A stretch of 63,738 nucleotides of DNA, filler included, from Collodictyon triciliatum (lineage: Eukaryota), in assembly GCA_043381765.1 (NCBI GenBank). It is 17 parts of 17 records of this genome, joined end to end, with 100 filler letters (N's around TTAATTAATTAA, not from the genome) between each part and the next. Parts side by side here need not be neighbours in the genome. Positions count along the whole stretch, not along the records: positions 42,040 to 45,756 come from JBHJMP010006970.1; 16 more parts are not named here. One strand, written 5' to 3'. Below the pieces are notes generated by a model. The model saw nothing but the letters and a program-made list of their open reading frames with translations, did not search any database and was not told where the DNA came from. A program made the translations under genes and the position numbers. The number at the start of each line of letters is the position of its first letter. Position 1 is the stretch's first letter. Below, piece after piece: positions 42,210 through 45,078 of this stretch.

Positions 42210-43053
42210 GGCTCGAGCTCTAGCCACCGACCCACGCGTAGCAAGATAAGTATGAATATAGTGCTCGGTATTAGTTGCTCTGATTCATTTCTTTTTTCTT
42301 TTTCTTTCTCTCTTTTCATTTTAACTTTTTCTTTTTCTTTGGTCTCATTCAGCTTATAAATGAATAAACTTCATTACAAAGGTTGTGACGAACTTGGTTT
42401 TATCCCTTTCATGACACAACACTTTTTATACATCGAAAGTGTACCCATATCAATCGATTTATGGCACAGACAACTATCGAATTAAATCTGGATTGACGAA
42501 AGCAGAAGCTTTGATGAATCCAAGAAAGAACCTGAATAATATAATAGTGTGATTAGTATATATAATAAGGCTTAAAGATACTTCATAATCTCATTTAATT
42601 CCTGTAATCAATTTATATTTCATTTTCCATTATGTAATATTAAAGCTAAAAAATGAAAAATTAAAAACAAGCCCTTGCCTTGGCCCAGACGGAACCCACT
42701 CTATAAACCTGCCACCAAACTTGGATTTCAAAAAAAGCATACTATCCACACTTGTGGCGGCAATCATGTTGTTTGGGGCCGATATGTTGACTTTCCGTCG
42801 CAATGGCTATGCAGCCGTCCTTTCGAACTCGCCGAATCAGCTCTCAGCGGTTTGTCTCAAATCACTTATAAATAAACTGAGTGCTTGACTGCCACAATGT
42901 GAACACTTTGAAAGTCTCGGTAGATGCTTAATATTACCTGAATTGATTTTATGCATTTTTATTTATTTATTAAATCGACTGATTGACTAAAGTTATATCA
43001 AAATTGAAAACTCGATAGTTTTCTAAAAGAAAAAGTAAAGCAAAGACTTTCAG

Positions 43054-43271
43054 ATGAAGAAAAGAAAACGTCTTGAGTTTGAGAATATAAAGTCTGTAAA
43101 ACCAGACTATCGAAATATGAAAACATCTCTTAAATCGATTGTAAAGAATGCGGATGATTATTACAAAATCAACGATACGGTTCTATTGTGTCATAATTTG
43201 GTTACCGACAATTATCTGTTTGTAAGATGTTACATATTGAAATCACAACAATTCCCAACAATCGATGAAAT

Positions 43272-43314
<43 letters not shown>

Positions 43315-44965
43315 TACGCTTTAAAAACAGTTGGAATAGTTTCACAAGAAAGACCCGCAAGATTTAAAAAAACCAGATACGAGTAAAGACATGATGACTT
43401 TTTATCTATGATTTTCGATTCCTTTTGTCCCGAGAACACTTTCTGTTGGTTGGATTGTCTCATGTATTACCGTACTTGGCGAAGCAAATGTTAACATCTT
43501 ATCATAATAACATTAAGGAGCATTTTGTAAAGAGGTTACTGCGCTTTACAAATCAAACAGTTCCTAAAGATGAGAATATTACGGAAGCTATTCAAAAGGC
43601 AAAGTTACGAAAGATAAGAAAAGCCATCTTCGAGAATCTTGAAATACCGGAACAATATAAAGAATGGGCTACAACGCATCTGAATCGTATCATTCCCAGC
43701 GATATTGTAAATGGTATCGAATATGACGTCAAAGTCAATCCAAACAAGTACACTCCATGTTTGATTCACATGAATCGCATTTATGAGGACATTAGAGCCA
43801 AACTGTTTCAATCAATCTCTATAAGGACTAACAATATGCCATGTCACATAACTCTAGATACTGCATGTTTGGTAGATATATTATTATTATCTAGTGGAAA
43901 AACATTATTACTGAAGAATATATCAGGATGCAAAGAGACCATATGAATTGAGTTCTTTGAAACGAAGAAGAGAGTCTTTCATCAAAGAGACTACAATTTT
44001 CTATACATGATACAAACAGACAGCTTGGCGGTGTCATCATTGTTATTTCAAAAGAAAGGTATTTCAAATTCAAAATCCAAATATAACCAAAAAACCAGGA
44101 ACATATAGATGAACTTTCCGAAGAGCAGGTATCTTCATTAGCGAAAATAACAATAGTTTGAGTGGACGCAGGCAAGTTTAATTTTGTTTACATGGTGGAT
44201 GAGACGGTAAGAAATTACATTACACCGCACATCAAAGAGGACATGATAGCAAATCTCTTAAAAATCACAAAATTCTCTTGCACGAAAAGAAAAAAAGAGT
44301 ACAATGTCCCAGGGATATACATGGCAATACGTTTACAAAGTTATATTTCTTTTGGTGCCTGGACTTTTGAAGAGAATAAGCTGTTTGAGACATCGAGAGT
44401 ATCTTTAATCGATTTAGAGACAGAACTGAGTAAACATAATTCATGCGCGGTCGATTATGATAAATTTCGAAAATATGTATCTATGAAATCAAGATACCAG
44501 ATAAAATTATCCAGATTTTATGAACCAGTAACTTTTCGAAAGATGAGATGGAGACAGTCTGTTAATACAAAAAGAAGTGAACAGTTGTTTATGGACCGAA
44601 TCGAAAAGACATTTGGCAAGGATGTTGTACTGGCGTATGGAGATTGGAGCAGAAAATGTCAGATGAACCATTTTATGGCAACAATCGGAAGGGGATCACG
44701 AAAAATACTATCCAAACGTTTTGAGACAGTAAGTGTAGATGAATTCAGAGCCTCCAAGATGTATTGCAACGGCGAAAAAGAACTGGAATATATGACTGAA
44801 AGGAAATTCAAAAAAAAAGTGCATAGATGTCTCATATGTAAAGAATGAAATTGCTCAGAAAGCAAACAAAGTGTATTCTTGACAAGGGACTTTAAACAGC
44901 GCTAATAATATACTTAAAGTTCTTTTAATCCTTCAAAATATTCATAACCTTCCTTTAAAAAATAG
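43054..44965 (+). pseudogene. Fanzor1 (TnpB-like RuvC nuclease) pseudogene, copy B
   Basis: MKKRKR..KTSLKSIVK, YLAKQMLTSYHNNIKEHFVKRLLRF, YDVKVNPNKY, ITLDT, MIQTD, VDAGK, YGDWSRKCQMNHFM, VDEFRASK, RCLICKE, TRD..SANNIL. Roughly 600 codons, with several stops and frameshifts and a ~40-nt poly(T) at 43273-43313. Confidence 0.9.
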
Positions 44966-45078
44966 GCAGTTGGGTCTTTCCTGGCAGCCTTAACCACTGC
45001 ACAACCTCTGTGAAACAAGTGGTGAGACCTTGGATACTAGTGGAACAGGTTAACGAATCGAAAGATGGTATACTCCTT
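44965..45078 (+). ncRNA. Putative Fanzor omegaRNA scaffold, copy B
   Basis: GGCAGTTGGG/CCTGGCAGCC stem, ACCACT..CACA-ACCTC-TGTG..AGTGGT stem, and a terminal ATC-GAAA-GAT hairpin. Homology to copy A ends at ...CCTT (45078). Confidence 0.65.

What the first reader, a model, noticed from the sequence alone, without database searches (positions are those of the whole stretch)
42337..45078. Fanzor1 RNA-guided nuclease element present in two independent copies
Seen: two colinear ~2.8-kb copies on different contigs (here and 19717-22656, minus strand), each with a broken ~600-codon ORF containing VDAG, YGDWS, VDEFR(T/A)S, a CxxC-type zinc finger and TRD. Known: this is the Fanzor/TnpB RuvC layout, where Gly replaces the canonical RuvC-II Glu and an alternative Glu lies downstream. 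The length and the N-terminal KTSLKSI and NNIKEHF motifs fit Fanzor1. Inference: this protist carries a Fanzor family. Most lesions differ between the copies, so a near-intact ancestral nuclease could be reconstructed from them.
Basis: partly seen in the sequence, partly recalled or inferred. Interest (0 to 1): 0.88.

Follow-up and report, generated by a model that had tools for sequence, protein, structure and literature searches.

The report
Two decayed Fanzor1 nuclease gene copies

Summary
Two colinear units of about 2.7 kb (A 42337-45040 +, B 22656-19756 -) are 86-87% identical and have unrelated flanks. Each holds a Fanzor1 reading frame of about 640 codons.

Fanzor1 identity is firm. All three open pieces of copy A match Fanzor1. 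A 42-member family profile matches solved Fanzor1 chains at E 1e-101 to 1e-80. A model of the intact 648-aa relative P0001 superposes on SpuFz1 at TM 0.75/0.79.

Both copies are pseudogenes. Each has at least 7 frameshifts and 2-4 internal stops. Differences fall evenly on codon positions (79/74/78; dN/dS 0.69). A TGA just before RuvC-I and a Pro-to-Ala change in the invariant DPG motif are shared, so their common ancestor was probably already dead.

Two coded runs hold 456 and 509 diverged contigs (80-99% alike) confined to the unit, so this is a high-copy family.

The closest labelled relatives are intact giant-virus Fanzor1 genes inside DDE_3 transposons with 32-33-bp inverted ends. The window units have neither transposase nor inverted ends.

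This is a known kind, of modest interest.

The parts
42337..45040 (+). Copy A of the repeated unit (5' non-coding part, Fanzor1 pseudogene, 3' tail ending in ...GGATACTAG)
   Evidence: It is colinear with copy B at 86-87% identity, and the flanks are unrelated. Contigs of runs X3 and X4 cover only bins 42288-45139 and none of the right flank. The left flank 42040-42345 was masked as repeat.
42337..43053 (+). 5' part of the unit, about 715 bases, no gene recognised
   Evidence: It is 79-93% identical between the copies. tblastx against 80 viral loci gave no hit. tblastn with the viral DDE_3 transposases gave a best E of 0.37. Rfam gave no hit. It has the highest summed contig depth in runs X3 and X4 and several internal-deletion joints.
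43054..44965 (+). Fanzor1 pseudogene, copy A (ATG 43054, probable native stop TAG 44963-44965)
   Evidence: A frameshift-aware alignment to the intact relative P0001 covers residues 1-642, with 399 of 624 aligned codons identical. It has 7 frameshift events (43363, 43409, 44101, 44205, 44290, 44894, 44953) and internal TGA stops at 43944 and 44159. Pieces of the frame match solved Fanzor1 proteins and the family profile.
43057..43071 (+). N-terminal basic run KKRKR (looks like a nuclear localisation signal)
   Evidence: Read from the translation. P0001 and the viral relatives start the same way. Published work reports that Fanzors acquired nuclear localisation signals (abstract of PMC10530073). 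The function here is inferred.
43273..43313 (+). poly-T expansion private to copy A (reads as a poly-Phe insert)
   Evidence: Absent from copy B and from P0001.
44159..44176 (+). Shared TGA stop followed by RuvC-I motif V-D-A-G-K (the family has D-P-G)
   Evidence: The DNA is identical in A and B here. The translations read IV*VDAGK in A and MV*VDAGKF in B. P0001 has G-V-D-P-G-K, and D364 and P365 are invariant in 42 of 42 relatives.
44636..44650 (+). YGDWS: Gly at the place of the lost RuvC-II Glu
   Evidence: G521 is invariant in 42 of 42 relatives and W523 is nearly invariant. The motif aligns to LGNWS of solved PpFz1. Equivalence to the canonical Glu position rests on the literature and was not tested here.
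44735..44773 (+). VDEFRAS (alternative RuvC-II Glu), then the first zinc-finger pair, destroyed in A (Y-C-N-G)
   Evidence: E555 is invariant in 42 of 42 relatives. In P0001 it lies six residues before the first Cys (C562). That position is Tyr in A and a TGA stop in B, and C565 is Gly in A.
44828..44890 (+). Second zinc-finger pair C-L-I-C and RuvC-III T-R-D
   Evidence: C587, C590, R603 and D604 are kept in both copies. R603 and D604 are invariant in 42 of 42 relatives.
44965..45040 (+). 3' tail with two hairpins (44965-44989 and 44993-45023) and the end ...GAGACCTTGGATACTAG; candidate omega-RNA scaffold
   Evidence: RNAalifold on A plus B predicts both stems, but 0 of 52 predicted pairs has a compensatory change. 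The single-sequence z-score is 0.09 for A and -3.62 for B. The position at the 3' end of the gene fits published Fanzor1 guide-RNA loci (passages). No RNA evidence.
19756..22656 (-). Copy B of the repeated unit
   Evidence: See copy A.
19833..21856 (-). Fanzor1 pseudogene, copy B
   Evidence: The start codon reads ACG. Stops are TAA 21751, TGA 21508 and TGA 20039, plus the shared TGA at 20633-20635. There are 7 frameshift events by the alignment, which mis-threads the RuvC-I stretch. An A-rich insert holds a 10-N gap at 20730-20739. 375 of 632 aligned codons are identical to P0001.

Best explanation
These are two old, inactivated copies of one Fanzor1 gene family. Each lies in a repeated unit of about 2.7 kb: about 715 bases of non-coding 5' sequence, a frame of about 637 codons, and a structured 3' tail of about 75 bases.

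An intact Fanzor1 is an RNA-guided double-strand DNA endonuclease. A guide RNA is made from the 3' end of the gene and the element's right end. It pairs with about 15-20 bases of target next to a short motif, and a single RuvC site cuts. That site is built from the Asp of RuvC-I, a relocated Glu just before the zinc finger, and the Asp of RuvC-III.

Here the catalytic Asp/Glu/Asp codons survive, but the frames are wrecked, so neither copy can make the enzyme. The two copies descend from a master that probably already carried a stop codon before RuvC-I. The unit nevertheless spread to many copies, so it was moved in trans by a transposase encoded elsewhere. Fanzor itself is not the transposase.

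Shown here: homology, decay, neutral drift, multi-copy state, kinship to giant-virus Fanzor1.
Inferred: the guide-RNA role of the 3' tail, trans-mobilisation, and the kind of transposase.
For: Identity:
- Copy A's C-terminal piece matches PpFz1 (5.5e-6), SpuFz1 (5e-5) and GtFz1 (0.039), and these were the only 3 chains listed at E up to 10. Copy B's piece gives the same three on top.
- The middle piece matches GtFz1 (3.5e-9), PpFz1 (1.1e-5) and SpuFz1 (2.7e-4).
- The N-terminal piece matches the family profile at 98.3% probability, E 1.5e-14.
- An exhaustive search found 1399 representatives at E <= 1e-3 and 517 at <= 1e-10.
- A profile of 42 full-length relatives matches PpFz1 (1.4e-101), SpuFz1 (1.2e-98) and GtFz1 (1.2e-80). 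26 of the 42 match PF07282.
- The AlphaFold model of P0001 has pLDDT 85.4 and pTM 0.84. Its seven best Foldseek hits are all Fanzor1 chains (TM 0.65-0.75 by query). Cas12, TnpB and Fanzor2 chains score TM 0.16-0.31.
- D364, G521, E555, R603 and D604 are invariant in 42 of 42 relatives and are kept in the window.

Decay:
- The lesions are listed under 'parts'.
- Over 524 comparable codons, differences by codon position are 79/74/78, with dS 0.218, dN 0.150 and dN/dS 0.69.
- Identity is about the same in the coding and non-coding parts.
- By contrast, 80 of 80 viral relatives have intact frames of 555-637 aa.

Shared lesions: the TGA and D-A-G.

Family:
- 456 contigs (run X3) and 509 contigs (run X4) at 80-99% likeness lie on the unit and none on the unmasked right flank. 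Many carry internal deletions.
- Several of A's indels are private against most of those contigs: 43407, 44896 and 44946.
Against: - No genome is held for this window, so an intact copy elsewhere in the same organism cannot be excluded.
- dN/dS of 0.69 is a little below 1. By my own arithmetic on the counts, the excess of synonymous changes is marginal (chi-square about 4.9). A transition bias (196 transitions against 131 transversions) can produce it, but some early constraint cannot be ruled out.
- The alignment mis-threads copy B around RuvC-I, so B's frameshift count is approximate.
- B also holds a 10-N assembly gap, so part of its damage may be an assembly artefact.
- There is no transposase, inverted terminal repeat or target-site duplication, so how it moved is not shown.
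- Runs X3 and X4 are labelled 'RNA?' by guess, and summed contig depth is not a copy number.
- The guide-RNA role of the 3' tail has no covariation or RNA support.
Confidence: 0.9

Rival explanations
1. The gene is alive: the breaks are introns, or the organism uses a variant genetic code.
For: Published work says many Fanzor genes carry introns (passages of PMC10530073). One A-only TGA (43944) sits where P0001 has Trp and B has TGG.
Against: - The coding sequence aligns to the intron-free P0001 without gaps at the breaks, and the frame changes fall inside conserved blocks.
- All three stop codons occur in frame (TGA, TAA, TAG).
- Most breaks are private to one copy.
- Codon positions differ equally.
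- Other long frames in the window are open under the standard code: 1076-aa WD40 protein, kinases, ABC transporter.
Confidence: 0.02
2. The two contigs are pieces of integrated or contaminating giant-virus DNA, not host transposon copies.
For: - The nearest labelled relatives are in giant-virus bins: 574 of 596 pattern matches in the viral collection encode relatives.
- Atlas neighbours are 92-100% viral, mostly Nucleocytoviricota.
- In the tree the window pair plus P0001 is sister to a viral group (SH-aLRT 93).
- Those viral loci sit among core virus genes: ribonucleotide reductase, capping enzyme, VLTF3.
Against: - The repeated part is only 2.7 kb, with unrelated, non-repeated flanks.
- Hundreds of diverged copies, many with internal deletions, are transposon behaviour.
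- The window copies are only 59-64% identical to P0001, and P0001 is 38-47% identical to the viral loci.
- There is no DNA similarity to the viral loci outside one 50-base coding stretch.
- No viral core gene is seen on either contig.
- The viral-only collection biases the labels, because the 46 unlabelled tree rows could be cellular.
Confidence: 0.06
3. Mobilisation variant 1: the unit is a non-autonomous derivative of a Tc1/mariner/IS630-like (DDE_3) transposon that lost its transposase, and its short inverted ends have eroded or lie in the flanking microsatellite.
For: - In the closest viral relatives (L001, L003, L004), perfect or near-perfect 32-33-base inverted repeats enclose a divergent DDE_3 + HTH transposase and Fanzor1.
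- 27 of 80 viral loci have that transposase within 3 kb.
- Fanzor1-only elements with mariner ends and TA duplications are published (passage of PMC3627910).
Against: - No transposase remnant is found (best E 0.37).
- The best inverted matches between the ends are imperfect and subterminal. They sit at different left-arm places in A and B, and their scores of 20 and 28 compare with a shuffle mean of 17.8 and maximum of 25.
- There is no similarity to the viral inverted repeats.
- No TA duplication can be read, because the left end abuts a (CTTTTT)n run in both copies.
Confidence: 0.3
4. Mobilisation variant 2: the unit is Helitron-like (rolling circle).
For: In both copies high identity stops exactly after ...CTAG. 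A hairpin (44993-45023) ends 17 bases before it. Fanzor1 in Helitrons is published. That a typical Helitron has a CTRR 3' end and a subterminal hairpin is my recollection, not a call.
Against: - No 5' TC preceded by A can be placed.
- The base after CTAG is T in A but C in B.
- No Rep/helicase is seen.
- The hairpin is weak and AT-rich.
Confidence: 0.1

Closest known systems
Solved Fanzor1 nucleases: Spizellomyces punctatus SpuFz1 (8gkh, 9ceu-9cez), Parasitella parasitica PpFz1 (9cf0-3), Guillardia theta GtFz1 (9cer-t)
   Same: There is full-length profile homology at E 1e-101 to 1e-80. The window's own pieces hit these proteins directly. The model of relative P0001 has the same fold (TM 0.75/0.79 to SpuFz1). 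The RuvC-I Asp, the Gly-x-Trp in place of the old RuvC-II Glu, the relocated Glu before the zinc finger and the RuvC-III Arg-Asp are all shared.
   Different: Sequence identity in the structural alignments is only 17-21%. The window copies are pseudogenes. Pro of DPG is Ala, and the first zinc-finger pair is destroyed. No guide RNA or target motif is known.
Giant-virus Fanzor1 inside DDE_3 (Tc1/mariner/IS630-like) transposons: IMG/VR loci L001-L005 here; PGv-1 type elements of Bao and Jurka 2013 (PMC3627910)
   Same: This is the nearest labelled clade in the tree, at 38-47% identity to P0001 over the full length. Length is the same (555-637 aa) and the N-terminus is also basic.
   Different: The viral genes are intact (80 of 80). 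They lie with a transposase between 32-33-base inverted repeats. The window units have neither. They have a 715-base 5' part and a 75-base 3' tail that share no detectable similarity with the viral loci.
Fanzor1-only non-autonomous elements (for example PUl-4 of Pythium, PMC3627910)
   Same: The unit encodes Fanzor1 and no transposase and is present in many copies, so it is presumably moved in trans.
   Different: The published cases keep recognisable mariner ends and TA duplications (passage). None is seen here.
Bacterial TnpB (IS200/IS605, IS607) and Fanzor2
   Same: Same superfamily: a RuvC nuclease with a zinc finger, guided by an RNA from the element's right end. 26 of 42 relatives match PF07282, the Cas12f1-like TNB domain.
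   Different: The fold match is distant: TM 0.20-0.22 to TnpB 8h1j, ISFba1 TnpB 8iaz and mimivirus Fanzor2 9b0l, against 0.65-0.75 to Fanzor1. The protein is longer, with the Fanzor1-type N-terminal half.

Membership tests
Fanzor1 | Full-length sequence homology to experimentally characterised Fanzor1 proteins | tested here: met
   The window's pieces match solved Fanzor1 chains or the family profile directly. The family profile matches at E 1.4e-101, 1.2e-98 and 1.2e-80.
Fanzor1 | RuvC-I catalytic Asp in a D-P-G motif (PMC10711439) | tested here: inconclusive
   Asp and Gly are kept, but Pro is Ala in both copies (VDAGK). 42 of 42 relatives, including the nearest one, P0001, have DPG. I read this as a change in an already dead lineage. 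It is a departure from the motif.
Fanzor1 | Canonical RuvC-II Glu lost; alternative Glu six residues before the first Cys of the zinc finger | tested here: met
   YGDWS has the invariant Gly. The Glu of DEFR(A/T)S aligns to the invariant E555, six residues before C562 of P0001. The rule comes from passages of PMC10711439 and PMC10530073. That the Gly sits at the old Glu position was not tested here.
Fanzor1 | [TS][TS]-x-x-C4 zinc finger followed by RD (Bao and Jurka motif, PMC3627910) | tested here: inconclusive
   The second CxxC and the RD are intact in both copies. The first pair reads Y-C-N-G in A and stop-C-N-C in B, and the first [TS] is Ala in A. The intact relative P0001 has the full motif.
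Fanzor1 | Fanzor1 fold (REC, WED, RuvC with inserted helices) | tested here: met
   Tested on the intact relative P0001, not on the broken window frames. Model pLDDT is 85.4. The top seven Foldseek hits are all Fanzor1, with TM up to 0.75/0.79. Distances between the three catalytic residues could not be measured, because no coordinates are given out.
Fanzor1 | Guide (omega/fRNA) locus at the 3' end of the gene running into the element's right end | tested here: inconclusive
   Two hairpins are kept in both copies, but 0 of 52 predicted pairs covaries. A's fold is no better than shuffles (z 0.09) and B's is better (z -3.62). Rfam gave no match. No RNA holder is listed.
Fanzor1 | Residence in a eukaryotic transposon (transposase, terminal repeats, target-site duplication) | tested here: not met
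   The window unit has no transposase remnant, no convincing inverted ends and no readable duplication. The feature is met in viral relatives L001, L003 and L004. The multi-copy, dispersed state is shown. This row bears on what kind of element carries the gene, not on the gene's family.
Fanzor1 | Open reading frame able to give an active nuclease | tested here: not met
   Both copies have at least 7 frameshifts and 2-4 internal stops, and B has lost its ATG. These are pseudogenes of the family.

The most novel reading that the evidence does not exclude
A Fanzor1-only cassette that was already nuclease-dead spread to hundreds of copies with no transposase and no inverted ends. It ends at a fixed ...CTAG after a hairpin, and the 41 bases beyond that end are still 68% alike between the two copies. 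That would point to a site-specific or otherwise unusual way of moving: rolling-circle-like, or repeated homing into one target family. The lineage's nearest labelled kin are giant-virus transposons, which would suggest virus-to-host transfer followed by a change of vehicle.
Probability: 0.12. Interest if true: 0.55.

Novelty: new member of a known kind. Interest (0 to 1): 0.3.

Why it matters
The result adds one more eukaryotic lineage to the long list of Fanzor1 carriers. It also gives a clear picture of the fate of such genes: the nuclease decays while the unit keeps multiplying. This fits the view that Fanzor is a passenger rather than the transposase.

The practical value for genome editing is small. 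Thousands of Fanzors are already catalogued (3655 unique sequences, passage of PMC10530073), the window copies are dead, and intact relatives are plentiful (P0001 and 80 of 80 viral loci).

The link to giant-virus DDE_3/Fanzor1 transposons supports the older idea that large viruses ferry Fanzor elements between eukaryotes (passage of PMC3627910).

Tried and rejected
- Pfam on 7 window pieces gave no relevant family, only two chance rows below cut-off. P0001 alone also gave 0 families in the local Pfam copy. Its precomputed tag PF26935 (DUF8286) is not in that copy.
- No whole genome is held, so the tBLASTn for intact copies could not be run.
- This scan's earlier notes had nothing, by place or by sequence.
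- Rfam gave 0 matches at gathering score on the whole window and 0 at E <= 1 on the unit. tRNA search found 0 genes.
- The 5' 715 bases gave no tblastx match to the 80 viral loci and no transposase remnant.
- Inverted ends: the repeat finder returned only low-complexity pairs. A local alignment of the ends scored near shuffles.
- The search for related loci failed with the 42-row alignment. With P0001 alone it found 36 pattern matches, none related. The 8-row alignment worked.
- An 18-base 3'-hairpin pattern in metagenome contigs gave 36 loci. None was related by blastn (E 1e-5) or by tblastn with P0001 (E 1e-3), so all are chance matches.
- Sequencing runs: no listed run holds half or more of the words, and no RNA holder is listed. 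X1 and X2 (labelled freshwater metagenomes) gave only 17 and 5 laid contigs, 2 each at 99% or more. That is too little to name a habitat.
- Host taxon: Atlas neighbours of an ABC-transporter frame say only 'Eukaryota'.
- No two-copy consensus or repaired protein was built or folded. The intact relative P0001 was used instead.
- Supplementary tables of the Fanzor papers (host lists, transposon associations) were closed. They may already list this organism or this subfamily.
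Full report
WHAT THE WINDOW IS. The window is not one stretch of genome. It is 17 small contigs (16 of about 3.7 kb and one of 2.6 kb) joined by N44-TTAATTAATTAA-N44 linkers. Most contig ends are microsatellites. The finding lies on contig 42040-45756 (copy A, + strand). The second copy lies on contig 19109-22826 (copy B, - strand). Other contigs carry ordinary eukaryotic genes in long uninterrupted frames: a 1076-aa WD40 protein, two protein kinases, an LRR protein and an ABC transporter half. 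Atlas neighbours of the transporter are 99-100% eukaryotic. No whole genome is held, so I can say 'eukaryote' but not 'protist'.

THE OBSERVATION. blastn and a global MAFFT alignment show one colinear match between the contigs in four segments of 85.6-87.5% identity. It runs from about A 42325 / B 22668, just inside a (CTTTTT)n run present in both, to A 45040 / B 19756. There both copies read ...GGTGAGACCTTGGATACTAG. Beyond that, identity in 80-column windows drops to 41-53%. There is no third copy in the window.

WHAT THE GENE IS. Pfam does not recognise the window's fragments. A plain phmmer search of the Protein Data Bank with copy A's 228-aa C-terminal frame returns only three chains at E up to 10, and all are Fanzor1: Parasitella PpFz1 5.5e-6, Spizellomyces SpuFz1 5e-5 and Guillardia GtFz1 0.039. 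Copy B's frame gives the same three on top. The 182-aa middle frame hits GtFz1 at 3.5e-9, PpFz1 at 1.1e-5 and SpuFz1 at 2.7e-4. The N-terminal 72 residues match the family profile at 98.3% probability.

The word-index search found an intact 648-aa relative, P0001. It is 57% identical to the C-terminal piece and covers all of it. The exhaustive search of 1.84 billion representatives found 1399 relatives at E <= 1e-3 and 517 at <= 1e-10, many of 600-700 aa.

I aligned 42 full-length relatives. The profile of that alignment matches PpFz1, SpuFz1 and GtFz1 over essentially their whole Fanzor parts, at E 1.4e-101, 1.2e-98 and 1.2e-80. 26 of the 42 match the Cas12f1-like TNB domain PF07282. An AlphaFold2 model of P0001 built on that alignment has pLDDT 85.4 and pTM 0.84. 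Its seven best Foldseek hits in the PDB are all Fanzor1 chains, led by SpuFz1 at TM 0.75 by query and 0.79 by target. Cas12, TnpB and Fanzor2 chains follow at TM 0.16-0.31.

The invariant columns of the 42 sequences include D364, P365, G521, E555, R603 and D604 in P0001 numbering. These are the RuvC-I Asp in DPG, the Gly of 'YGDWS', the Glu of 'DEFRTS' six residues before the first zinc-finger Cys, and the RuvC-III Arg-Asp. That is the published Fanzor signature:
- DPG plus an 'alternative' Glu six residues before the zinc finger (passages of PMC10711439).
- An alternative Glu compensating for the lost canonical one (passages of PMC10530073).
- The motif D...[TS][TS]xx[C4]...RD, with G500 and E536 extra-conserved in Fanzor1 (passages of PMC3627910).

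THE STATE OF THE TWO COPIES. tblastn and a frameshift-aware alignment against P0001 thread both copies through residues 1-642.

Copy A keeps its ATG (43054). It needs seven frame corrections (43363, 43409, 44101, 44205, 44290, 44894, 44953). It has in-frame TGA at 43944 (Trp in P0001, TGG in B) and at 44159. It carries a 41-base poly-T expansion (43273-43313), and its first zinc-finger pair is changed to Y-C-N-G.

Copy B has ACG for the start codon. Its stops are TAA 21751, TGA 21508 and TGA 20039, the last at the first zinc-finger Cys. It has seven frame corrections by the alignment, and an A-rich insert that includes a 10-N assembly gap (20730-20739). My alignment mis-threads B around RuvC-I. 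The DNA alignment and tblastn show it reads MV*VDAGKF there.

The TAG at A 44963 / B 19835 is shared and lies where the family's frames end, so I take it as the native stop.

Two departures from the family are shared by both copies on identical DNA. One is the TGA one codon before VDAGK. The other is Ala in place of the Pro that 42 of 42 relatives have in DPG.

Over 524 codons comparable in both copies, the differences fall 79/74/78 on codon positions 1/2/3, with dS 0.218, dN 0.150 and dN/dS 0.69. Transitions outnumber transversions 196 to 131, which by itself pushes such a ratio below 1. Identity is about the same in the non-coding 5' part as in the frame. The copies have therefore drifted without coding constraint for essentially all of their 13-14% divergence. 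Their last common ancestor probably already had the stop before RuvC-I. By contrast, 80 of 80 viral relatives fetched have intact frames of 555-637 aa.

A FAMILY, NOT A PAIR. No public run holds the stretch as such: the best share of sampled words is 0.09. When four runs were laid at 80% likeness, two small coded runs (X3 organism A, X4 organism B) gave 456 and 509 contigs on the unit. These split 21/115/186/134 and 49/124/175/161 across the classes >=99, 95-99, 90-95 and <90% alike. They cover every bin from 42288 to 45139 and nothing from 45140 to 45756. The left flank 42040-42345 was masked as repeat. There are many internal-deletion joints.

At several of A's frame-breaking indels most contigs carry the other state: 'CA' put in behind 43407, one base left out at 44896, and 'C' put in behind 44946. 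At 44205 most contigs share A's one-base shortfall and only a minority have B's extra base. So frame-breaking changes are spread through the family in nested fashion, as expected if dead copies were themselves copied.

Two cautions apply. The runs are stored as contigs and their 'RNA?' label is a guess. Summed depth is not a copy number, and nothing can be said about expression.

HOW IT MOVED. The unit has no transposase. It has a 715-base 5' part with no recognisable gene or RNA. I found no convincing inverted ends. No target-site duplication can be read, because the left end abuts a microsatellite.

The relatives give a lead. 574 of 596 pattern matches in the viral collection encode relatives, and the 80 best are 38-47% identical to P0001 over the full length. 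Atlas neighbours are clusters that are 92-100% viral, mostly Nucleocytoviricota, tagged PF26935 (DUF8286).

I built a quick maximum-likelihood tree of 73 rows: the two window copies read through with X at breaks, 46 unlabelled proteins and 25 of the 80 viral frames. In it, A+B (support 100) join P0001 (100). This trio is sister to a viral group (L001-L005 with P0006 and P0007) with SH-aLRT 93, which is not starred. The labels are biased, because only a viral collection could be searched at the DNA level.

In L001, L003 and L004 the Fanzor1 gene sits next to a divergently transcribed DDE_3 + HTH transposase (PF13358; E 1.3e-13 and 1.5e-15 for L001 and L004; the L003 copy is 62% identical by tblastn). 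The pair is enclosed by 32-33-base inverted repeats that are 97-100% complementary. The flanking genes are giant-virus core genes. 27 of 80 viral loci have that transposase within 3 kb.

Fanzor1 in mariner-type elements of giant viruses, and Fanzor1-only derivatives with mariner ends, were described in 2013 (passages of PMC3627910). The most economical reading is that the window units are non-autonomous passengers moved in trans. Whether the vehicle is of the DDE_3 type is open. An alternative is a Helitron-like vehicle, suggested by the fixed ...CTAG end 17 bases after a hairpin, but the 5' end does not fit.

THE GUIDE RNA. After the stop codon the unit has about 75 bases with two hairpins (44965-44989 and 44993-45023) that RNAalifold predicts in both copies. 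With only two sequences, 0 of 52 predicted pairs shows a compensatory change. A's fold is no better than shuffled sequence (z 0.09), though B's is (z -3.62). The position fits published Fanzor1 guide-RNA loci, where the scaffold includes the transposon end and the guide extends about 15 bases beyond it (passages of PMC10711439; PMC11423790). Here this is inference only.

VERDICT. The element is a pair of long-dead members of a repeated Fanzor1 family. It is a known kind with thousands of described relatives and hundreds of intact close ones. The proposed two-copy reconstruction would not by itself give an intact nuclease, because the stop before RuvC-I and the DPG change are shared. It would also leave the many codons where the copies differ undecided: 57 match P0001 in A only, 63 in B only and 192 in neither, of 615 compared. 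Interest is modest at 0.3. The small open questions are the vehicle that multiplied a dead cassette and the residual similarity just outside its 3' end.

Noticed in passing
window 45041-45081 versus 19755-19715 (- strand): High identity stops at ...CTAG, but the next 41 bases of the two otherwise unrelated flanks are still about 68% alike (28 of 41 by my hand count on the alignment). This is far above chance yet well below the unit's 87%. It could be a target-site preference, insertion into an older repeat, or a fast-changing guide region. Unexplained.
   Followed up: partly
whole window; linkers such as 3724-3823, 19009-19108 and 41940-42039: The window is a chain of 17 contigs of nearly equal length (about 3.7 kb), joined by N44-TTAATTAATTAA-N44. 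Most contig ends are microsatellites, so the assembly breaks at simple repeats, which are very common in this genome.
   Followed up: yes
window 42288-42336 and 22668-22826: A CT-rich hexamer microsatellite, (CTTTTT)n or (CCTTTT)n, abuts the 5' end of the unit in both copies. It is either part of the unit or a favoured landing site. In a genome this rich in microsatellites it may be chance.
   Followed up: partly
L001 1637-4952, L003 1638-4919, L004 1627-4949 (giant-virus bins of IMG/VR): These are complete 3.3-kb transposons with 32-33-base perfect or near-perfect inverted ends. Each carries a DDE_3 + HTH transposase and an intact Fanzor1 in divergent orientation, with the right repeat starting only about 16 bases after the Fanzor1 stop. 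They are inserted among core virus genes.
   Followed up: partly
window 15290-18520 (+): One uninterrupted frame of 1076 codons made almost wholly of WD40 repeats (16 repeat matches, E 1e-158).
   Followed up: no
window 7967-9130 (-), 28302-29441 (-), 9807-10568 (-), 57290-58387 (-): These are intron-free frames for two protein kinases, a leucine-rich-repeat protein and an ABC-transporter membrane half. They show that the contigs are eukaryotic and read by the standard code.
   Followed up: no
P0001 residues about 411-443; window 44290-44390: P0001 and the window copies share an insert of about 33 residues after RuvC-I that the other seven aligned relatives lack. It has low confidence in the model (pLDDT below 50 at 419-438).
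   Followed up: no
window 5852-6403: A 552-N gap lies inside one contig. The six 'ORFs' listed there are artefacts of the N run.
   Followed up: no
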